Sequence record: PZ445443.1
Reading direction: 5' to 3' (one strand)
From: a phage
DNA length: 64,000 bases
The notes beneath the pieces are model-generated. The model saw only the letters and a list, made by a program, of their open reading frames with translations. It made no database searches and had not been told where the DNA came from. Positions 487-62,808 of the stretch are shown piece by piece. Both the position numbers and the translations under genes were made by a program. Every line of letters begins with the position of its first letter. The first letter of the stretch is position 1.

Positions 487-2558
487 TGGCAACAGCTGTT
501 TTTAAACCTTACCGTGATTACTCTACAATGGCTGCACAGTTTCATTACCGAACAGTTCAGGATACTGCCGTTCCTGGTAGGGATTATAATCATGTTGAGG
601 GCGATGTAACTATCCCAGTTGGGGCAACCAGTATTGAGATCCCAGTGGAAATTGTTGACAAATTACCCAACAGGTTGCCAAGAAGCTTCTTTATGGAGTT
701 TTCATCAAAATCTCAAGGAGTGATGATTGGAACACAAAGGGCGAAATGTACAATAGTTTCAGATGAGAATCTTGACAGGATATCTTGGGATACTGTTGAG
801 GAGAGAATGTTTCACCCAAGATATTGGGTTACAACCACTCAGCAGACTGAAAGTACCTGTATTGTTGCAGATAACAACTGTTGTATTAACCGTTTAGTGT
901 CAAGAACATATGGAGGTATGGCTGGGTGCATTTGGGAAACAGTTGACAAGTATGACCATTTCGGTATTGGGTTTGATGATCACTATGAGATGAGAAACAC
1001 CAAGCTTTGGTTCAGAATGTCAATAACCAACGCCAGCAACTTCTCCACTCCTGAAAAGATGATTATGACTGTAGACCTTGTTGATGGCACAATCATCTAT
1101 GTTCCTTTAGCTCAATATGCTGTCAGCATCTCAGAGGATAAAAATGTTGCAGAAATTCATATTGATTTTGAGGACTGCGTCGGGATGGACCAGAACAACA
1201 ACATGATGGGTGTTGATCCTCGGCAGGTGAGAAGGATTTTAATACCACTTATGCCTAAAGACTGGGTAAGTAATAGCACAGATCCAAGAACGGAAAATGT
1301 AGAGTGTGAGTTGCGCCTAGATCTGCTTCAGCCAGACACAGGCTGGAAAATGATGCAACTTAATAATATCCAGGTGAGAGAGCACGACGTTGGGATCTGC
1401 ACCGCATATGACGATATGTGGAACGTGTCCCCTTTAAGGGTGTTGAACAATATCAAGCGTCTGGGCTATACCGGAACCATAAACCATTATGTTGGTATGA
1501 GTCATTATTATGACTACACATGGTCAGGAACCCAATGGTCTATAAACAGAACAGGAGCGCTAAACGCTGCAGCTTATAAATGGCATGATGATTTTATGTA
1601 CAATGCCAAACGACATAACTTCGACGTTATGCAATCTGTAAGTTTTGAGCTTTTCAGCGATGCCTGCCCGTTGGAATGGACCCAAAGAGACTGGAACGAT
1701 AACTACGCTAAAACAGGGTATACACCTTGTAGCTACCTCCTGTCTCCAACCATTGAAGAGGGTATGAATTTCCTTACTGCAGTATTTAAGAATTTTGCAT
1801 CAGCCGCTATGAGAAACAACCTGCCAGTGATTATGCAGGTTGGTGAACCGTGGTGGTGGTACAATACCGATACTCGTAGACCTTGTATTTATGATTACCC
1901 TACAAAACAGGCGTTTTATGATGAGACAGGCGAGTATGCATTAGATATTGGGACTATTGACGATCCTAAAACTGGCGGTGTTTACGACAAGTATGTAGCA
2001 TTTTGTCGTGGTAAGCTTGGCGCTCGTATTGCGGCTATTTCAAAGGCAATAAAAGCACACGCTGCATCAGCTCAGATGACAGCTTTGCTGTTTTTCCCAA
2101 CCATCATGGAAACCGAGCTTACGCAAAAGCTGAACCTTGCTGACCAATATAAAAAGGAAGCAGGTGCTCTTGATTTCTTCTGCACCGAGTGCTACGATTG
2201 GGTGATGCAGGGAGGTATTGAAAAGGCAAAAGAGTCTGTAAACATACCTATCGTTAAGTTAGGTTGGCAACCGTCTGAAATACAATACCTTGCAGGGTTC
2301 GTTCCTAGTAAAGAGCTTGCTCCGGTATATGGCTACGACCCAACCAGGAATTACCAAGAATTTTTATGGAGATGTATCTGCGGAAACATGGCAACCATAG
2401 AGTATAGATACCCTGAGGTAAAACAGTATGTGTGGGCATACCCGCAAGTAATGTCTGACAGCATCACTGTTACAGCCAGAGATTCTACCGTGCTTCATAT
2501 GGGGCAGGTTGCTCTGAAAGGGTATGTAGAAGATGTTGTCCCTCCAGACTTCTCATAA
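486..2558 (+). CDS. tail/baseplate-associated structural protein (690 aa), function unknown
   Basis: 690-aa ORF; AGGAGG at 474-479; translationally coupled to upstream ORF; immediately upstream of fibre genes. Confidence 0.5.
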   Translation: MATAVFKPYRDYSTMAAQFHYRTVQDTAVPGRDYNHVEGDVTIPVGATSIEIPVEIVDKLPNRLPRSFFMEFSSKSQGVMIGTQRAKCTIVSDENLDRISWDTVEERMFHPRYWVTTTQQTESTCIVADNNCCINRLVSRTYGGMAGCIWETVDKYDHFGIGFDDHYEMRNTKLWFRMSITNASNFSTPEKMIMTVDLVDGTIIYVPLAQYAVSISEDKNVAEIHIDFEDCVGMDQNNNMMGVDPRQVRRILIPLMPKDWVSNSTDPRTENVECELRLDLLQPDTGWKMMQLNNIQVREHDVGICTAYDDMWNVSPLRVLNNIKRLGYTGTINHYVGMSHYYDYTWSGTQWSINRTGALNAAAYKWHDDFMYNAKRHNFDVMQSVSFELFSDACPLEWTQRDWNDNYAKTGYTPCSYLLSPTIEEGMNFLTAVFKNFASAAMRNNLPVIMQVGEPWWWYNTDTRRPCIYDYPTKQAFYDETGEYALDIGTIDDPKTGGVYDKYVAFCRGKLGARIAAISKAIKAHAASAQMTALLFFPTIMETELTQKLNLADQYKKEAGALDFFCTECYDWVMQGGIEKAKESVNIPIVKLGWQPSEIQYLAGFVPSKELAPVYGYDPTRNYQEFLWRCICGNMATIEYRYPEVKQYVWAYPQVMSDSITVTARDSTVLHMGQVALKGYVEDVVPPDFS

Positions 2559-2570
2559 TCAGGAGATAAA

Positions 2571-3611
2571 ATGTCAAAACCTAGTTTTCCATTAGAGATT
2601 TGGGCAGAGGAGGATCAGGTTCTGCCTAACACCCACAGACAGAACAGGCTACGCCCGATTGATGATTTGTGGAGAAAAGGTTGGGATCTTGGTCAAAAGC
2701 CATCCTGTGAAGAACTTAACTATATTTTCAATATGCTCGGAACTTGGGCAAAATACATTGCTGACGAGCAGATCCCCGCTCAAGAAGGCCGTTATCTGGT
2801 ACGTGATAATAACTTGAGCGATCTTTTGAACATCCCTGTTGCCCGTAGAAACCTTGGGATTATCACTAAGGAAGAGGCAGACGCCAGGTATGTAAAAGTT
2901 ACAGGTGATACAATGACAGGCCCCTTGGGGTTGCAACGTATCAACTTTAAAGCTGCCGAGACAGATAAGGCTTGGATAGAGACAACTATTGGCCCAGATA
3001 AGACAACTCTCGACTTTGGGTTAAGTGATAATACCGGGTCGTTTGATGATGGTGGTACATCTACAGTAGATGCGTTTCGTTGGAGATTCCAGCCAACTCA
3101 GCCGGATATTAATCCAGAGTTCACTTTGATGTACCTTAACGCGATCACGGCTAATCGTGCGCTGTTGAAAGTGGTAGGCAATGTTGAAGTTGTCGATAAC
3201 ATGAGGTGCAATAACCTTACTATCAGCAATACAGCAACATTCACCAACTGTAATGTGGCTAGTCAGTTGACGGCTGGGTCAGTATATGTTAATGGTGGTG
3301 CAAGTTGTGACAGTATGGTTGTAAGAAGCCAGCACTGTGTTGTCGGTAACAGAAATGTGGTGCGCTCCGTGAATGGAGTGACGGCTAACGGTAACGGTGA
3401 TGTAACGATCACTATCCCGCAGACAGGTGTGCAAGACATCAGAATCGGTGCAAGACTTGTGGACGGCGTTTCTGAATCTCCAATCCGCAACGGCTACGTT
3501 GTCACAGGCTGGCATTTCGGTGACAAAAAAGAGATGCGTGGTTCAACCTACTGGGCAGGACCTTTACAAAAACTTGTAAATGGTCAATGGATCACTGTTA
3601 ATTATGCATAG
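2571..3611 (+). CDS. tail fibre protein, paralog 1
   Basis: 346 aa; RBS AGGAGA; N-terminal ~200 aa and C-terminal QKLVNGQWITVNYA shared with ORF 4626..5669; followed by Tfa-like gene. Confidence 0.7.
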   Translation: MSKPSFPLEIWAEEDQVLPNTHRQNRLRPIDDLWRKGWDLGQKPSCEELNYIFNMLGTWAKYIADEQIPAQEGRYLVRDNNLSDLLNIPVARRNLGIITKEEADARYVKVTGDTMTGPLGLQRINFKAAETDKAWIETTIGPDKTTLDFGLSDNTGSFDDGGTSTVDAFRWRFQPTQPDINPEFTLMYLNAITANRALLKVVGNVEVVDNMRCNNLTISNTATFTNCNVASQLTAGSVYVNGGASCDSMVVRSQHCVVGNRNVVRSVNGVTANGNGDVTITIPQTGVQDIRIGARLVDGVSESPIRNGYVVTGWHFGDKKEMRGSTYWAGPLQKLVNGQWITVNYA

Positions 3612-57981: not shown

Positions 57982-58401
57982 ATGAATATTAAATCTGATA
58001 ATCCGGCATATAGCTTTGATAACGCTTTTTGTCACGGTCCGGCGGCGAAAGGTTTTGAAATTGATGGTAAACTAGTTATTGTCAATGTTGACGGGGAAGA
58101 GGTTGCAGTGTATCCGGTGGCAGACGTTAAAAGCCGTTTACAATGCCGCATCGATGTTACCGCATATCAGCTTGATCCGGTCCGCGTAGTCTCCCTGGTC
58201 CTGGAGGAAGAAATCAAAGCAATGCACCACAGCAATAAGTTTATCGGTGACGCGCAAGATAATATGAAGGTATGCCGCTATAAAGTTAATGAAGTGCTTA
58301 AAGAATATGGATTTAAGGATCTGATGATCAAACGTGATGAAAAATTTCGTTATCGTAACGACCTGGCAAATCGAATCTATGAAATATACGAATCATTATA
58401 A
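57982..58401 (+). CDS. early protein (139 aa)
   Basis: ORF track; RBS AAGAGG. Confidence 0.55.
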   Translation: MNIKSDNPAYSFDNAFCHGPAAKGFEIDGKLVIVNVDGEEVAVYPVADVKSRLQCRIDVTAYQLDPVRVVSLVLEEEIKAMHHSNKFIGDAQDNMKVCRYKVNEVLKEYGFKDLMIKRDEKFRYRNDLANRIYEIYESL

Positions 58402-58420
58402 TTTTTTAACTGAATTATCA

Positions 58421-58445
58421 AGGGGCTTAGGCCCCTTTCTTTTTG
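58421..58445 (+). terminator. rho-independent terminator closing the early cluster
   Basis: AGGGGC-ttag-GCCCCT followed by TTCTTTTT. Confidence 0.65.
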
Positions 58446-59039
58446 TCTGCTCTTCCCCTACCATAAACGGCCATACATGGCAAGTGGAATAATTGACGAG
58501 CCATCAATCCCACACACTGTACAAATATACATGTAAAATAACTATTGCATAACTTTTCATTGTGTGGTAGCAGGGCCATTTTTACACGTTTTTCCTTCCA
58601 AAATTGCACGTAATGCAGCATTTGCACAAAATTTAACCTGATGCATATCTTCAATAGCTTGTCAACAACTAAAAATCTTTATAAGTCATACACTTACATA
58701 ACTACAAAAGCGTTTTCTACGTGAAAAATCGAGTATAACTATAGCCGCCAGACCTCAGAATTTACGTACGCTCGACATTCTATAGCCTGCTAAGCATTTA
58801 TTCCAACCATAGAATAACGGAATAGTCAATACCTGCATAAAATAATTATTCGTGTAAACTGCATAACATAAATCGGCCCAGGTGTCAACATTTTTCGTAA
58901 ACAGTCCGAAATTATCACTATGAGTTATCATAAACAGGGAAATCTTTAGTCGTCTAATGTTTACTGTACATTACTATACTGACTGGAATCATTAGATGAC
59001 TAAGAGAAAGATAAGAAATAATTAACAATACAATTATTT

Positions 59040-59345
59040 TATCTGTAACAATAAGGCAACTATGCAAACGAATGGCATGGCGCGACGGAGTCGCGACATA
59101 ATATAAAAGCAGTAACCATCACCCCCGTGATAGTTTGTCTGCAAACTATTAATCAGATCATAGTTGCCTTGTATTTAGTTAATCATGACATAACAAGCAA
59201 GGCAACTATAGATCTGCTAATAGTTGCCCTGCTTTTATATTATGTCATAGAAACACCCGAAGGGGTGACCAAAGGTCACCTGGCATGGCCAGTGAAAGAT
59301 TATTAACTTGCTAATAGTTATCATGCAAACGAATGGCATGGCTGA
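59040..59345. repeat. palindrome-rich segment bounded by a 20-bp direct repeat
   Basis: ATGCAAACGAATGGCATGGC at 59062-59081 and 59323-59342; palindromes CGCGACggaGTCGCG, GATAGTTTGtctgCAAACTATT, GGCAACTAT...ATAGTTGCC, GGTGACCaaaGGTCACC; long-range inverted repeat GACATAATATAAAAGCAG / CTGCTTTTATATTATGTC. Confidence 0.45.
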
Positions 59346-59350
59346 TTATC

Positions 59351-59490
59351 GGTGTGTAAACAGTCAATCATGTAAATGGTTAGCATGTGAACAATCAGGA
59401 ATGTAAACAATCCAGTGTGTAAACTAATAGGTGTGTAAAAGTGTCATGTTGTGTCAGTTAGGTCACATTATGTCATATTGTGTCAGACAA
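59351..59490. repeat. iteron-like array of TGTAAAC / TGTCA(G/T) short repeats
   Basis: GTGTGTAAACAG, CATGTAAATGG, CATGTGAACAA, AATGTAAACAA, GTGTGTAAACTA, GTGTGTAAAAG at ~16-bp spacing, then TGTCAT/TGTCAG repeats. Confidence 0.45.
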
Positions 59491-60012
59491 GTTTTTCTCC
59501 TCTTTGTCAAGTGCTGCATGAAAAATTTACAATCTGGTATGGTAGCATTTTTGCGGCCCTGTTTACATTCAGGGGTGTATGTATAATCCTTGTTGTGTGG
59601 GCGTTTAGACGTCTGGACGGTCAGAAGTCTGCAGGTTAATATCTAATCTATTGGCTGCTAACTATATCCCACACAAATAGTAAGAAATATGATTGTTATA
59701 TGCGTAAACTGTAACTCATGTTATCAATCCCTGTATGTATCGCCAGTGGTGCGCATAATGGGTATTATGTTAAATTGCCCGTAATGATAAAGGTTCTCAC
59801 AATGATAGGTATTCTCATTCACCCCCACAAAATAGATTGCAAATGTTGTGCCACTGTGTGAACGGCCTAGCCTATTAATTTGCCTCACTGCCTCGATATT
59901 TGAGAATTGTTATAAGAATGAGAAGTATTCCCATTTCGTCCGCCTGGCAGCACTCCTGTAGGTCAGGTCAAAATCGTGGTAGAACTGGACCTGTTCAGAT
60001 ATTTCTGGCTGA

Positions 60013-61202
60013 CTCTTCAGGTCTGTGTGGGAAAAGCCAACCTCTCCGGCGGGGCAGGGGATAGGTCAATTAAAAAATTTACGTGGTGTATGAAGCGCTC
60101 TTCAGGTAAGGCAGGTATTATGGGATGAAACCCTCTTCAGGCAATGATATTTGTGGGTGTGATATTTGCTGGAAAGCCAGATATGACGGGACTCCCGGCG
60201 GGGCAGGGGTGGTACAGACAGGGAAAATATGAAGGATGTGGTTGGGTAGATTGATCAGACAGGTAGAGTATGGAATATGTTACAAGTATGTTAAATATGG
60301 AGGTTGAATATCTGTAGGATTTGTGTGTAAAATCAAAGACTTAAGTGGTGTTGTGGTATTTTCTATAAATAATTCAAGTTTAATAGGTGATATTTGTCTC
60401 TATCCGCTTTGTGTGGTAAACAGATTCAGATGAGATTGGTTTACAAGTGTATACATAATATACAAATTAAAGATACAAGAAACCCCCCTCCCCCTTCGGC
60501 TACCATTCACCTTTTCCTCTGACTGGTACTTAAACACTTATTCAGACTCTTCAGGTTATCACCTATATATCATATGGCAGTGACTGGTGTCCTCCGGCCC
60601 CTCTTTCGTCACCCGTCCGCTTCGCCATGCTAATGCCATAGCCAATGGTTCGGTTGTTCACCCTGTTCACTCAGGTGTATCTCCATACCCCTTCAAACCG
60701 AAGAGAACAGAAAACCCGAATTACTCGGTAAAAGAAAAGAGAAGAACTTAATTTTATCAGGATAGGCAAGAATGTCAAGGCATGACTGCTCACTAAACAA
60801 GCAAACAGTCATGTGTGGGAGGTAAGTGATTGTGGTGGTAGGAAATTTAGTTGAAAGATGTGTTATAGGTGCTTCCAGCACTTTAGCCGGGCAGCTAATT
60901 GTGTGTCAGTCCAGCGGTTCATCCTCTACTTCACTGAAATCAATGTTCATGGTCTCCTCCCAACCATCGATCTCAGCACAAGAGTGGAGTTCTTTAGGGT
61001 TTACTCCCAAAGCCTCAGCAACAGAGTCTATATTTAACACCTCTGGCAGGTATGATTCATCAAATTCAAGGTAAATCAGGCCACGAGTGTTGTCAGCCCC
61101 ACCAAATATTTCTATCTTCATGAAATCTCCTCTGGAAATGAGAGTGTGAACAGGGTTTTATGCGTTCCAATACGCTGGAATTATACACGTTTGCCTCTTC
61201 AG
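60013..61202. repeat. dispersed CTCTTCAGG 9-mers (5 copies) and two copies of CTC(C)CGGCGGGGCAGGGG
   Basis: CTCTTCAGG at 60013, 60098, 60133, 60547, 61194; CCGGCGGGGCAGGGG at 60046-60060 and 60195-60209. Confidence 0.4.
60906..61121 (-). CDS. hypothetical acidic small protein (71 aa)
   Basis: ORF track; ATG 61121 with GAGGAG 6 nt upstream. Confidence 0.5.
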   Translation of the reverse strand: MKIEIFGGADNTRGLIYLEFDESYLPEVLNIDSVAEALGVNPKELHSCAEIDGWEETMNIDFSEVEDEPLD

Positions 61203-61242: not shown

Positions 61243-61656
61243 TCATAGTCTACCACCTCTGAACTCTTCGTGCTCAGGCATAATAGAGAACCAGATATCT
61301 ACGATGTCTCCCCACGTTAGGTCATCAGCCTCAGGATCTACCTGGAGCGAAGATGGAGAATCTTCAGAATCGAAGTTTTCCTCTTTCACTGGCTCAGCCA
61401 AGGGACATATAGCCACTCCTTTGGATGTCTCTTCAGATGCATGTGTGTTTATCATGTTCCACCCGTGAGTATTCCGGCAACAGCCACTATGGACGTAATG
61501 ATCATCAGAATCACCACCAAAACCTCTGACAATGTTTTCATTGTGTATCCCATATTCTCCAAACGATGTGTGGATACTATCACTGGAGCGACAATGTGTC
61601 AACAGAAACGCCGCGAGGGTTTGGTTAAAATCCGAGCGTATGGTGATTTGGGTCAA
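61243..61656 (-). CDS. hypothetical protein (137 aa); start uncertain
   Basis: ORF track; TTG start without clear RBS; competing + strand ORFs are Ser-rich and less plausible. Confidence 0.35.
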   Translation of the reverse strand: MTQITIRSDFNQTLAAFLLTHCRSSDSIHTSFGEYGIHNENIVRGFGGDSDDHYVHSGCCRNTHGWNMINTHASEETSKGVAICPLAEPVKEENFDSEDSPSSLQVDPEADDLTWGDIVDIWFSIMPEHEEFRGGRL

Positions 61657-62502: not shown

Positions 62503-62808
62503 TTATTCTACAGAGCGTTTGAACAGAATGTCTGCCTCAGACATGTGCTCAACCTCTTCTTCAATCTTAGCGCGACGTTTTTCAGCTTCGTAGCGGATAT
62601 CAAACTCTGTAGCCACCAAAGATTTGATGAATTTAGGAGAATACAGATGATCCTGCTTCTCAACAAGAATGATATCCTTGATGGCATCTTTCAAATCTTT
62701 AATCTGAAGCTGGAGTTCCACCAGTTCTTCAATTGTTTTGCGAAGGCGATCACGTTCTGCAGTGTCAGAAGGAAGAGAGGTGAACAGTTCAACTTTAGAT
62801 TTAGCCAT
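62503..62808 (-). CDS. hypothetical coiled-coil protein (101 aa)
   Basis: ORF track; ATG 62808 with AAGGAG upstream; charged heptad-like sequence. Confidence 0.55.
   Translation of the reverse strand: MAKSKVELFTSLPSDTAERDRLRKTIEELVELQLQIKDLKDAIKDIILVEKQDHLYSPKFIKSLVATEFDIRYEAEKRRAKIEEEVEHMSEADILFKRSVE

What the first reader, a model, noticed from the sequence alone, without database searches (positions are those of the whole stretch)
58450..60900. 2.4-kb non-coding region dense in palindromes, direct repeats and an iteron array
After the early cluster comes a long ORF-poor region holding: a 20-bp direct repeat ATGCAAACGAATGGCATGGC (59062, 59323) bracketing at least five palindromes; a long-range inverted repeat GACATAATATAAAAGCAG / CTGCTTTTATATTATGTC; six or more TGTAAAC-type iterons at ~16-bp spacing (59351-59440) followed by TGTCA(G/T) repeats; and two copies of CTC(C)CGGCGGGGCAGGGG (60046, 60195). 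This is far more structure than a terminator or promoter needs and suggests a multi-site control region, perhaps genome terminus, partition-like site or regulator array.
Basis: seen in the sequence. Interest (0 to 1): 0.6.

Follow-up and report, generated by a model that had tools for sequence, protein, structure and literature searches.

The report
Genome-end region of rV5-like phage
This 2.5-kb gene-free stretch is where the linear DNA of an rV5-like E. coli phage begins and ends: it holds the 459-bp terminal repeat, flanked by arrays of short repeats and a large conserved hairpin-forming palindrome that probably direct cutting, packaging or copying of the genome ends.

Summary
The repeats are real. 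The window is a Vequintavirus (rV5-like E. coli myophage), and 58402-60905 is a gene-free gap between two convergent gene clusters. No ORF in it has a coding signature.

The gap holds the virion DNA ends. Exact 459-bp and 458-bp direct terminal repeats (DTRs) of phages HdK5 and YN3 map to window 59486-59944. At least eight GenBank records start or end at those two positions. Short DTRs are published for this genus.

The TGTAAAC array (15-16-bp period) and TGTCA array (about 10-bp period) abut the left DTR boundary. All 21 relatives compared have both arrays, with very different copy numbers. I verified that T7 likewise has short-repeat arrays next to its terminal repeat.

The 18-nt inverted repeat is the outer stem of a 152-nt compound palindrome. 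Counterparts in Mydovirus and Seunavirus phages show compensatory changes, and the same strand always folds better.

Most of the gap is more conserved than the flanking genes. It includes an invariant sigma-70 promoter pointing at the DTR.

Verdict: this is a genome-terminus (concatemer-junction) region. The "genome terminus" guess is supported; "partition site" is not. How the arrays and the palindrome act (terminase recognition, end duplication, origin or RNA) is inferred, not shown.

The parts
58420..58445 (+). Intrinsic terminator that closes the left (+ strand) gene cluster, whose last gene ends at 58401
   Evidence: GC hairpin plus T-run. It corresponds to terminator t164 of rV5 and is annotated as a terminator in phages Murica, Alma and HdK5.
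58446..59045 (.). Non-coding spacer next to the virion right end (window orientation). It is moderately conserved and contains imperfect inverted repeats at 58510-58567 and 58946-59003.
   Evidence: No ORF here has a coding signature.
59062..59081 (+). Copy 1 of the 20-bp direct repeat ATGCAAACGAATGGCATGGC, which resembles the array A unit
   Evidence: family D11. Unchanged in all 21 sequences.
59095..59246 (-). Compound palindrome: an 18-bp perfect outer stem, a long inner hairpin built on ATAGTTGCC / GGCAACTAT sites (59160, 59201, 59220; a fourth site at 59055) and a GC-rich side hairpin (59114-59135). The - strand folds better than the + strand.
   Evidence: z -8.8 to -10.3; - strand -73.3 versus + strand -65.7 kcal/mol. 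98-100% conserved in 21 relatives. Positional counterparts in Mydovirus and Seunavirus show compensatory changes and the same strand bias.
59249..59299 (.). Dispensable cassette with two hairpins (CACCCGAAGGGGTG and GGTGACCAAAGGTCACC). Present in about half of the relatives.
   Evidence: clean presence or absence. An 88% match occurs in 13-kb phage-like E. coli plasmids. It is a 75% inverted copy of 61382-61432.
59323..59342 (+). Copy 2 of the 20-bp direct repeat. It sits at the head of array A.
59351..59440 (+). Array A: six (Y)GT(A/G)AAC(A)(G/A)T units at a 15-16-bp period. Copy number varies strongly between phages.
   Evidence: Relatives have 1-11 units, and 64 of 82 spacings are 15 or 16 bp. 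Insertions and deletions come in multiples of about 15 nt.
59441..59485 (+). Array B: four (A/G)TGTCA units at about a 10-bp period. The last unit ends exactly at the terminal-repeat boundary (TGTCA|GACAAG).
   Evidence: Relatives have 2-7 units. All 21 arrays, and YN3, end in TGTCA immediately before the repeat.
59486..59944 (+). Direct terminal repeat (DTR), present once in this collapsed or concatemer-like sequence. The virion left end starts at 59486 and the right end stops at 59944.
   Evidence: The exact 459-bp (HdK5) and 458-bp (YN3) terminal repeats map here. Record ends of Pr121LW, bov11CS3, bov25_3, EdH4, ECP2309 and Aya fall on these boundaries. Almost no gaps across the 21-sequence alignment, and matches of about 457-460 bp (of 459) in nearly all listed records. 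Literature.
59945..60010 (+). Variable zone immediately right of the terminal repeat. Relatives carry one or two roughly 33-nt modules starting GCAGCACTCC.
60013..60555 (+). Non-coding block next to the virion left end. It holds four CTCTTCAGG motifs (60013, 60098, 60133, 60547) and two CCGGCGGGGCAGGGG copies (60046, 60195).
   Evidence: CTCTTCAGG: 4 of the 6 copies in the window are here. The G-rich 15-mer: both copies in the window are here.
60490..60744 (-). Ultra-conserved non-coding segment downstream of the conserved promoter. It is either a candidate unstructured transcript or a DNA-level site.
   Evidence: About 14 variable columns in 250 nt, against about 30 per 50 nt in the flanking gene. 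Not coding. No folding signal, z about -0.3. No Rfam match.
60751..60778 (-). Sigma-70 promoter TTGACA-N16-TGATAAAAT, firing toward the terminal repeat
   Evidence: 11 of 12 matches plus an extended -10. Both hexamers are unchanged in 21 of 21 sequences while the spacer varies. It has the same form as the rV5 promoters listed.

Best explanation
The region is the genome-terminus (concatemer-junction) region of a Vequintavirus.

Layout on virion DNA. The segment 59486-59944 is present at both ends of the linear molecule as a direct terminal repeat (DTR). In replicating or assembled DNA it is present once, between the two unique ends:
- 58402-59485 is the non-coding tail of the right end.
- 59945-60905 is the non-coding head of the left end.

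Proposed mechanism, by analogy with T7-type phages (inferred):
1. Terminase or an accessory end-binding protein recognises repeated sites next to the repeat. These are array B (TGTCA, about 10-bp period, so all sites face the same side of the helix) and array A (GTAAAC type, 15-16-bp period).
2. It cuts at the two fixed boundaries, TGTCA|GACAAG and GTCCGCC|TGGCAG.
3. The single junction copy of the repeat is duplicated by strand-displacement or hairpin-primed synthesis.

The 152-nt compound palindrome lies 240 bp outside the repeat. It acts as a folded single strand, either DNA or RNA of the strand that runs 5' to 3' from the repeat toward the palindrome. Its role is in end duplication, priming or replication.

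What is shown and what is inferred:
- Shown: the position of the terminal repeat (by homology to mapped relatives); the non-coding nature of the gap; conservation of the arrays as arrays; covariation and strand bias of the palindrome; the conserved promoter.
- Inferred: which protein binds the arrays, and what the palindrome does.
For: Position of the terminal repeat:
- HdK5 carries an exact 459-bp repeat at both record ends. It aligns without gaps to 59486-59944.
- YN3, from an independent laboratory, carries an exact 458-bp repeat with the same boundaries.
- At least eight records start or end at one of the two boundaries.
- Korf et al. 2019 report 458-bp terminal redundancies for EdH4 and HdK5.
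- KPP-1, of the same subfamily, has a 514-bp repeat typed as T7-like by PhageTerm.
- The window holds a single copy with both flanks contiguous.

The arrays:
- All 21 aligned relatives keep array A then array B, ending in TGTCA at the boundary. Unit sequence and copy number differ (A 1-11 units, B 2-7).
- The repeat itself has almost no insertions or deletions across the 21 relatives.
- T7, checked here, has its 160-bp terminal repeat followed by about twelve CCTAAAG-type units at a 13-bp period, further units before the right-hand copy, and a leftward host promoter A0 beside the repeat.

The palindrome:
- Mydovirus and Seunavirus phages have the same layout: a gap between convergent clusters, a similar motif at the KPP-1 repeat end and its aligned position in the others (CTTGACA.GAG.AGA...TTGT), and a perfect 18-21-nt inverted repeat 164-183 nt apart.
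- In their alignment, 15 of 68 pairs carry compensatory changes. Shuffles give 5.8 +/- 1.7 (0 of 500 reach 15), and slid controls give at most 3.
- In all seven elements tested, the strand running from the repeat toward the palindrome folds better, by 6-17 kcal/mol.

Constraint on the region:
- The non-coding blocks are more conserved than the neighbouring genes.
- No ORF in the gap behaves as coding.
Against: - No reads or end-mapping data exist for this isolate. The termini are placed by homology at about 96% identity.
- One paper on another Vequintavirus reports a PhageTerm call of headful packaging with partial permutation. That conflicts with fixed ends, although the same paper also reports a DTR.
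- Nothing shows that terminase binds arrays A or B. Their strong variability between near-identical phages is unexpected for an essential recognition site and could simply reflect replication slippage.
- As far as I know, the function of the analogous T7 arrays is itself unestablished.
- Only the left side of the repeat has fine short-unit arrays. The right side has 33-nt modules.
- Homology of the window's palindrome to the Mydovirus/Seunavirus element is weak in a structure-aware search: E 0.07-0.15, on the opposite strand to that implied by the flanks, and the window's own copy was not among the reported hits.
- Within Vequintavirus the palindrome is almost invariant, so the covariation evidence comes from the sister genera.
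- The claim that those loci are inverted relative to the window rests on an annotation note, a short motif and weak BLAST hits. A direct protein comparison of the flanks found nothing.
Confidence: 0.75

Rival explanations
1. The palindrome, the ATAGTTGCC sites and the GTAAAC array form an origin of replication. Initiator-binding iterons sit beside an easily melted AT-rich stretch, or the hairpin is a strand-specific priming signal. The terminal repeat merely lies next to it.
For: - The arrays look like iterons, and there are four inverted ATAGTTGCC sites unique to this region.
- The surrounding DNA is AT-rich, at 38-39% G+C.
- Cumulative GC skew peaks here. The rV5 authors noted the same skew change while searching for the origin.
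- The hairpins are strand-specific, as in single-strand initiation signals.
- An ATAGTT(A/G)C palindrome recurs in the same region in the other genera.
- From memory: T7 secondary origins lie near its ends.
Against: - The skew switch coincides with the switch in transcription direction, as the rV5 authors themselves said.
- There is no DnaA box, even allowing one mismatch, anywhere in 58402-60905.
- No initiator-like gene is adjacent.
- The array period of 15-16 bp with a 7-9-bp core and copy numbers from 1 to 11 is unlike classical 17-22-bp iterons.
- Array B ends exactly at the cleavage position, which points to end formation.
- This reading does not exclude the main explanation.
Confidence: 0.2
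2. The region is chiefly a locus for non-coding RNAs. One is a structured RNA of about 170-220 nt made from the palindrome on the - strand. Another is a roughly 250-nt RNA made from the conserved promoter at 60778-60751. The repeats are by-products.
For: - The promoter hexamers are unchanged in 21 of 21 sequences, with an ultra-conserved non-coding stretch downstream.
- The palindrome shows compensatory changes and G-U-type strand asymmetry.
- A conserved TTGACA...TGCTCAA motif lies about 100 nt upstream of the palindrome, on the better-folding strand, in Mydovirus and Seunavirus.
- Terminator-like hairpins occur on the - strand at 59135-59114 and 59267-59254.
Against: - No Rfam family matches, even at E up to 1.
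- The block downstream of the promoter folds no better than shuffled sequence.
- No convincing promoter lies upstream of the palindrome in the window.
- The upstream motif in the other genera has spacing that does not fit sigma-70.
- No transcriptome for the genus turned up in one literature search.
- This reading does not explain why the arrays abut the repeat boundary.
Confidence: 0.2
3. The gap is a passive buffer between convergent transcription units. It holds terminators and decayed gene remnants, and its repeats have no function.
For: - The flanking clusters converge on the gap.
- There is a terminator at 58420-58445, and terminator-like hairpins occur inside the gap.
- One cassette (59249-59299) looks like a copy of the 5' part of a nearby gene.
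- Annotators place different small ORFs in the gap.
Against: - Most of the gap is more conserved than the flanking genes. Some stretches have 0-5 variable columns per 50 nt, against about 30 in the flanking gene.
- The layout is kept across genera with compensatory changes.
- The terminal repeat maps inside the gap.
Confidence: 0.04
4. The arrays are a partition (centromere-like) site bound by a ParB-like protein.
For: Only the general resemblance of repeated short sites to centromere arrays.
Against: - The phage belongs to a strictly lytic group with linear DNA bearing terminal repeats.
- The eight flanking proteins tested have no Pfam domain. PHROGs assigns seven to families of unknown function and one to a transcriptional regulator.
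- The arrays are tied to the terminal-repeat boundary.
Confidence: 0.02

Closest known systems
Bacteriophage T7 concatemer junction (160-bp terminal repeat with flanking short-repeat arrays SRL/SRR, promoters A0, phiOL and phiOR, and a hairpin processing intermediate)
   Same: - A short exact direct terminal repeat, present once at the junction.
- Fixed ends.
- Arrays of short direct repeats directly next to the repeat. I verified this in T7: about twelve CCTAAAG-type units at a 13-bp period from bp 161, with further units before the right-hand copy.
- A host-type promoter pointing toward the genome end beside the repeat (A0 at bp 224; compare 60778-60751 here).
- Several hundred bp of non-coding DNA at each end.
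- A hairpin DNA form has been linked to duplication of the repeat (summary in PMC4281155).
   Different: - There is no sequence similarity.
- The host phage is a 137-kb myovirus with no phage RNA polymerase.
- The repeat is three times longer.
- There are two different array types (16-bp and 10-bp periods), on one side only, and their copy number varies strongly between close relatives.
- The palindrome is a 150-220-nt multi-branch element conserved across a subfamily.
- The flanking genes are transcribed toward the ends.
- About 1 kb of ultra-conserved non-coding DNA lies on each side.
Published Vequintavirinae termini (EdH4 and HdK5 458 bp; Gotham 459 bp; KPP-1 514 bp) and the 'non-coding' box on the rV5 genome map
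   Same: It is the same locus. The rV5 paper drew this gap as 'non-coding', between ORF163 and ORF164. The terminal repeats of HdK5 and YN3 map onto 59486-59944.
   Different: The papers I could read give only the repeat length, or note the gap. None links the gap to the termini, and none describes the arrays, the compound palindrome, the conserved promoter or the cross-genus conservation.
Terminase recognition arrays beside cleavage sites (lambda cosB R sites; P1 pac hexamer repeats). Recalled from established literature, not tested here.
   Same: Several short repeated sites lie immediately next to the position where terminase cuts. A helical-phase spacing of about 10 bp, as in array B, would suit cooperative binding or wrapping.
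   Different: - Those systems make cohesive ends (lambda) or start headful packaging (P1), not terminal repeats.
- Their site numbers are fixed, whereas copy number here ranges from 2-7 and 1-11.
- Binding by a small terminase subunit is untested here.
Strand-specific single-strand initiation signals and hairpin-primed replication elements (phage G4 complementary-strand origin, plasmid ssi sites, parvovirus terminal hairpins). Recalled; a functional analogy only.
   Same: A 100-200-nt multi-hairpin element whose pairing is kept by compensatory change and that folds better on one strand.
   Different: - There is no sequence or family relationship.
- The element is internal, 240-310 bp from the repeat, not at the extreme end.
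- No flip/flop isomers appear among the 21 isolates.

Membership tests
Short-DTR (T7-type) phage genome terminus / concatemer junction | The same exact sequence is present as a direct repeat at both ends of virion DNA | tested here: met
   Met by homology. HdK5 (459 bp) and YN3 (458 bp) carry exact repeats at both record ends, and these map to 59486-59944 at 95-96% identity. This isolate's own virion DNA was not examined.
Short-DTR (T7-type) phage genome terminus / concatemer junction | Fixed, non-permuted ends (every virion starts at the same base) | not testable with these tools
   This needs reads or end mapping. The literature supports it for Gotham and KPP-1. One report of a PhageTerm headful call for BpE1AUH disagrees. 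Eight records share identical end positions.
Short-DTR (T7-type) phage genome terminus / concatemer junction | A single copy of the repeat joins the right-end and left-end unique sequences in concatemeric or collapsed assemblies | tested here: met
   The window has one copy, with both flanks continuous. Most of the 119 records likewise have one copy at an internal position.
Short-DTR (T7-type) phage genome terminus / concatemer junction | Arrays of short direct repeats adjoin the terminal repeat (a T7 feature, not universal) | tested here: met
   Arrays A and B abut the left boundary in 21 of 21 relatives. The right side has only 33-nt modules. The T7 arrays were verified.
Short-DTR (T7-type) phage genome terminus / concatemer junction | A terminase of the DTR-generating type that recognises the junction | not tested
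Iteron-type replication origin | Three or more directly repeated initiator sites (typically 17-22 bp) beside an AT-rich unwinding element, with a cognate initiator gene nearby | tested here: inconclusive
   Repeats are present, but the units have a 7-9-bp core at 15-16-bp spacing and copy number ranges from 1 to 11. The flanking ORFs have no recognisable domains.
Iteron-type replication origin | Host DnaA boxes (for DnaA-dependent origins) | tested here: not met
   None of the 28 window matches to TTATCCACA (at most 1 mismatch) lies in 58402-60905.
Known structured RNA families (Rfam 15) | A match to a curated covariance model | tested here: not met
   No match at gathering thresholds across the window. 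No match at E up to 1 in 58350-61000. No tRNA or tmRNA.
Partition (parS/centromere) site | Cognate ParA/ParB genes and plasmid-like maintenance | tested here: inconclusive
   The eight flanking proteins have no Pfam hit. PHROGs gives unknown function for seven and a transcriptional regulator for one. The whole genome was not searched. The lytic, terminal-repeat lifestyle argues against this reading.

The most novel reading that the evidence does not exclude
The compound palindrome (59095-59246) is a previously undescribed strand-specific folded element conserved throughout the Vequintavirinae. It acts either as a structured non-coding RNA transcribed outward from the genome end, or as a single-stranded DNA hairpin that primes duplication of the terminal repeat or lagging-strand synthesis.

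The adjacent hypervariable arrays read as -35-like hexamers on that same strand (TTTACA every 16 bp, TGACA every 10 bp). They would form a tunable loading platform for terminase, RNA polymerase or an end-binding protein.

Together these would define a mode of end formation distinct from T7 for a large group of therapeutic myophages.
Probability: 0.3. Interest if true: 0.6.

Novelty: new member of a known kind. Interest (0 to 1): 0.42.

Why it matters
rV5-like phages are among the E. coli phages most often isolated for therapy and biocontrol. Even so, their records are deposited with arbitrary start points, and this 2.5-kb gap is annotated either as empty or with spurious small ORFs.

Placing the physical ends at 59486 and 59944 explains the long-noted 'non-coding' box. 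It gives a rational coordinate origin for about 120 genomes.

It also identifies the cis-acting DNA that engineered or rebooted genomes must keep: the terminal repeat, the arrays, the palindrome and the conserved blocks.

How a single junction copy of a terminal repeat becomes two is still understood mainly from T7. A second, unrelated lineage with clear candidate elements makes that question testable in a new system. Those elements are a covariation-supported hairpin 240-310 bp outside the repeat and variable repeat arrays ending exactly at the cut site.

Tried and rejected
1. Known RNA families. Rfam found nothing at gathering thresholds over the window, or at E up to 1 over the region. ARAGORN found no tRNA or tmRNA.

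2. Hidden genes. Thirteen ORFs in the gap were tested for integrity and codon-position bias in 21 relatives, and none behaves as coding. The 35-aa ORF at 60563-60670 has mostly changes at codon positions 1 and 2, and its stop codon is not conserved.

3. Structured RNA downstream of the conserved promoter. The fold is no better than shuffles on either strand.

4. The promoter-like site inside the repeat (59504-59533). The final T of its -10 hexamer is lost in most relatives, so I rejected it.

5. DnaA boxes. None in the region.

6. Mimicry of host sequence. The right-hand block has no match in 5,426 E. coli genomes. The left block matches only through the 52-nt cassette.

7. More divergent relatives for covariation within the genus. 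Scans of viral and metagenome contigs with two invariant motifs returned four loci (two apparently the same 137,418-bp contig), all holding both exact motif copies.

8. Direct homology between the window and KPP-1. BLASTN gave only 20-37-nt matches (E 0.001 or weaker), and the flanking ORFs show no protein similarity.

9. A covariance model built from the Mydovirus/Seunavirus palindromes. It hit the Vequintavirus palindrome only weakly, at E 0.07-0.15. Homology of that element across genera therefore rests on position, architecture and partial arm similarity.

10. Transcriptome literature for the genus. None found.

11. One script failed because the locus files were not yet synchronised. One attempt used tblastx, which is not installed.


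Full report
**Identity and setting**

The window is from a Vequintavirus (rV5-like E. coli myophage). Region 58400-60950 matches about 120 phage records at 90-96% identity, and nothing outside this genus at the nucleotide level.

The region is a gap between two convergent gene clusters:
- The + strand genes end at 58401, followed by a terminator at 58420-58445.
- The - strand genes end at 60906.

The rV5 genome paper drew this gap as a grey box labelled 'non-coding'. It noted a GC-skew change there while looking for the origin, attributed the skew change to the switch in transcription direction, and gave the gap no function. It predicted no promoter inside the gap.

- the 20-bp direct repeat (59062 and 59323, 100% identical);
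- the 18-nt perfect inverted repeat (59095-59112 and 59229-59246);
- six GTAAAC-type units spaced 16, 15, 16, 16, 16 bp (59355-59440);
- four TGTCA units at about a 10-bp period (59442-59485);
- two copies of CCGGCGGGGCAGGGG (60046 and 60195).

Several motifs are confined to this 2.5 kb within the 64-kb window. ATAGTTGCC occurs 4 times here and nowhere else, as does GTGTGTAAA. CTCTTCAGG has 4 of its 6 copies here.

I tested thirteen ORFs in the gap against a 21-sequence alignment:
- Most are interrupted in relatives.
- None shows an excess of third-position changes. The flanking genes do, at 51/47/71 and 8/6/27 variable sites by codon position.
- The one ORF with a plausible ribosome-binding site (60563-60670) changes mainly at codon positions 1 and 2, and its stop codon is unique to the window.

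**The decisive lead: the genome ends are here**

In the BLAST tables, five records from different laboratories start or end at query position 1087, which is window 59486. Korf et al. [quoted passage not shown]

I fetched both ends of the HdK5 record. It carries an exact 459-bp direct repeat, which aligns without gaps to window 59486-59944 at 95.9% identity. YN3, from an independent laboratory, carries an exact 458-bp repeat with the same boundaries: GACAAG... at one end and ...GTCCGCC at the other.

Other records also place an end on one of these two positions: Pr121LW, bov11CS3, bov25_3, ECP2309 and EcoIv14a_Aya. [quoted passage not shown] KPP-1, in the sister genus Mydovirus, has a 514-bp repeat typed as T7-like by PhageTerm.

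One paper reports a PhageTerm headful call for a further Vequintavirus. I treat that as the minority result.

The window therefore reads through a collapsed or concatemer-type junction:

right-end unique DNA (to 59485) | terminal repeat (59486-59944) | left-end unique DNA (from 59945)

Array B ends exactly at the left boundary of the repeat (TGTCA|GACAAG), and array A precedes it.

In all 21 sequences aligned, the segment between the second 20-bp repeat and the terminal repeat has the same plan. They cover the species V5, FFH2, murica, slur16 and APECc02, several unclassified phages and two IMG/VR contigs.
- First come GTAAAC-type units. Of 82 spacings, 64 are 15 or 16 bp.
- Then come TGTCA units. 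Of 54 spacings, 30 are 9-11 bp, and most of the rest are double that.
- The array always ends in TGTCA at the boundary.

Unit sequences and copy numbers differ widely: 1-11 A units, 2-7 B units, and segment lengths of 106-219 bp.

This is the most variable part of the whole region. The other variable spots are a zone just right of the repeat, where relatives carry one or two 33-nt modules starting GCAGCACTCC, and a 50-nt cassette at 59249-59299. The terminal repeat itself has almost no insertions or deletions in the 21-sequence alignment, and nearly all listed records match over 457-460 bp of the 459-bp query.

Both boundaries fall at the centre of small odd palindromes, TGTC-A-GACA and GCC-T-GGC. 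I read this directly from the sequence.

**Comparison with T7, tested rather than recalled**

In the T7 record, the 160-bp terminal repeat is followed from bp 161 to 340 by about twelve CCTAAAG-type units at a 13-bp period. Similar units precede the right-hand copy. A leftward E. coli promoter (A0) is annotated 64 bp beyond the repeat.

The layout of terminal repeat, adjoining short-repeat arrays, an end-directed host promoter and several hundred non-coding bp at each end is therefore shared. No sequence is shared. The T7 model of concatemer processing, including a hairpin-containing intermediate, is summarised in PMC4281155.

**The palindromes are one conserved folded element**

The 18-nt inverted repeat is the outer stem of a 152-nt compound palindrome. 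It has:
- a long inner hairpin built on ATAGTTGCC / GGCAACTAT sites;
- a GC-rich side hairpin.

It folds far better than shuffled sequence, with z = -8.8 as DNA and about -10 as RNA. It is 98-100% conserved in the 21 relatives, which is more than the adjacent protein-coding genes. That near-invariance leaves no room to detect covariation within the genus.

The non-coding terminal region of KPP-1, however, has nucleotide homologues in 65 records of Mydovirus and Seunavirus. The KP12 record starts exactly at the reported start of the KPP-1 repeat. KPP-1, PVP-SE1, 4MG and GAP31 show a gap between convergent clusters; only one flank of KNP2 was fetched. All five, including KNP2, share two features:
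- a motif like the one at the KPP-1 repeat end, CTTGACA.GAG.AGA...TTGT|. Its boundary position is known only for KPP-1, and it resembles the reverse complement of the window's repeat start;
- a perfect 18-21-nt inverted repeat with arms 164-183 nt apart, lying 260-330 nt outside that end.

Aligned, these five give a four-branch consensus structure with 95% of cells paired. Fifteen of 68 pairs carry compensatory double changes. Column shuffles give 5.8 +/- 1.7 (0 of 500 reach 15), and partner columns slid by 1-3 positions give at most 3.

The pairing also contains G-U-type pairs on one strand. Across all seven elements folded, the better-folding strand is the one that runs 5' to 3' from the terminal repeat toward the palindrome:
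- For the window and rV5, the - strand is better by 7.6 and 12.6 kcal/mol.
- For the five others, the + strand of the fetched locus is better by 6-17 kcal/mol.

This agreement depends on the five other loci being inverted relative to the window. The support for that is indirect:
- The PVP-SE1 record notes that gp183 resembles rv5_gp167.
- The repeat-end motif fits the inverted orientation.
- Weak reverse-strand BLAST hits lie inside the repeat.

Such strand bias points to a single-stranded functional form, RNA or single-stranded DNA, rather than a symmetric duplex binding site.

There are three caveats:
- A covariance model built from the five sequences hits the Vequintavirus palindromes only at E 0.07-0.15, and on the + strand.
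- The internal order of the hairpins differs between the groups.
- Direct protein comparison of the flanks found nothing.

**The right half**

From 60490 to 60744 the sequence is almost invariant, with about 14 variable columns in 250 nt. It lies downstream of a - strand promoter, TTGACA-N16-TGATAAAAT. The promoter's hexamers are unchanged in all 21 sequences while its spacer varies, and in one case the spacer is rewritten at 18 nt. The promoter has the same form as the rV5 early promoters listed by Kropinski et al..

The promoter fires toward the terminal repeat. The downstream block is non-coding, folds no better than shuffles, matches no Rfam family and has no match in E. coli genomes. It is either an unstructured early RNA or a DNA-level site. 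I could not decide which.

**Mechanism proposed**

Shown:
- The region holds the terminal repeat and both cut positions (by homology).
- It is non-coding and strongly constrained.
- The arrays persist as arrays.
- A strand-biased folded element lies 240-310 bp outside the conserved repeat end across three genera.

Inferred:
- Terminase or an accessory protein loads on the phased TGTCA and GTAAAC sites.
- It cuts at TGTCA|GACAAG and GTCCGCC|TGGCAG.
- The single junction copy of the repeat is duplicated by displacement or hairpin-primed synthesis, as proposed for T7.
- The palindrome takes part in that step or in priming of replication.

Rivals:
- An origin of replication and an RNA locus are not exclusive of this picture, and each keeps about 0.2.
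- A passive buffer is contradicted by the conservation.
- A partition site has no support.

**Novelty and score**

The terminal repeat of the genus and the existence of the gap are already published. The following appear to be undescribed in the literature I could search:
- the link between the gap and the termini;
- the arrays ending at the cut site;
- the covariation-supported palindrome;
- the conserved repeat-end motif;
- the end-directed promoter.

The kind of system, a short-repeat terminus with flanking repeats, is known from T7. I therefore rate this a new member of a known kind, of moderate interest (0.42). It is useful for annotating and engineering these therapeutic phages, and as a second system for studying how terminal repeats are duplicated.

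Noticed in passing
window 59249-59299; NZ_CP035869.1 10646-10697 (L025 1501-1552): The dispensable two-hairpin cassette is present in about half of the Vequintavirus relatives. It also occurs, at 88% identity over 52 nt (E 4e-8), in a 1.1-kb non-coding stretch of 13.3-13.7-kb circular E. coli 'plasmids'. One of these, pE275a_13, encodes a major capsid protein, a tape measure protein, a baseplate protein and HTH proteins, with no annotated terminase or portal. It looks like a tiny phage-like or satellite-like replicon sharing a cis element with these phages.
   Followed up: partly
window 59249-59299 versus 61382-61432: The same cassette is a 51-nt, 75%-complementary inverted copy of the 5' part of the 70-aa gene at 61243-61455. 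In one reading frame it gives ETPEGVTKGHLAWPVK, against ETSKGVAICPLAEPVK in the gene. This suggests a gene-fragment origin, or a shared embedded element.
   Followed up: partly
L018 (phage I29, ON286975.1), insertion after window 60062: I29 carries a 592-nt chimeric palindromic insertion. It consists of 60065-60272, then the inverted segment 60272-60208, then 59728-60052. The junction is at the 17-nt inverted repeat 59728-59744 / 60208-60224. This is either a snap-back or template-switch product, or an assembly artefact near the genome end.
   Followed up: partly
GenBank MG0656xx records (for example MG065653, MG065654, MG065666): Nineteen records named 'Campylobacter phage' are 90-96% identical to this E. 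coli Vequintavirus region. The host is probably mis-assigned, or the preparations were contaminated or mixed.
   Followed up: no
window 60013, 60098, 60133, 60547 (also 61199); L022 about 2597: The motif CTCTTCAGG occurs four times to the right of the terminal repeat, out of six copies in the 64-kb window. It also appears inside the reported KPP-1 repeat (locus 2517-3030), near one end. It could be a further protein-binding site shared across genera.
   Followed up: no
window 60046-60060 and 60195-60209; window 60480-60491 (- strand): There are G-rich tracts here: GGCGGGGCAGGGG twice on the + strand and GGGGGAGGGGGG on the - strand. In most relatives the first copy instead reads CCCCTCCGGCGGCGGGGAGGGG, a GC hairpin with a T-rich tail on the - strand. 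These could be terminators or G-quadruplex-forming sequences.
   Followed up: no
window 62503-62808 (- strand): This 101-aa protein, about 1.6 kb from the region, matches PHROG 639 (transcriptional regulator, E 1e-21). It is a candidate binder of the repeated sites. The other seven flanking proteins have no assigned function.
   Followed up: no
L022 3127-3150; L031 1657-1678; window 59160-59228: The palindromic motif ATAGTT(A/G)C...G(T/C)AACTAT recurs near the terminal repeat in Mydovirus, Seunavirus and Vequintavirus. In the first two it lies between the palindrome and the repeat, and in the window it lies inside the palindrome. It may be a conserved operator-like site.
   Followed up: partly
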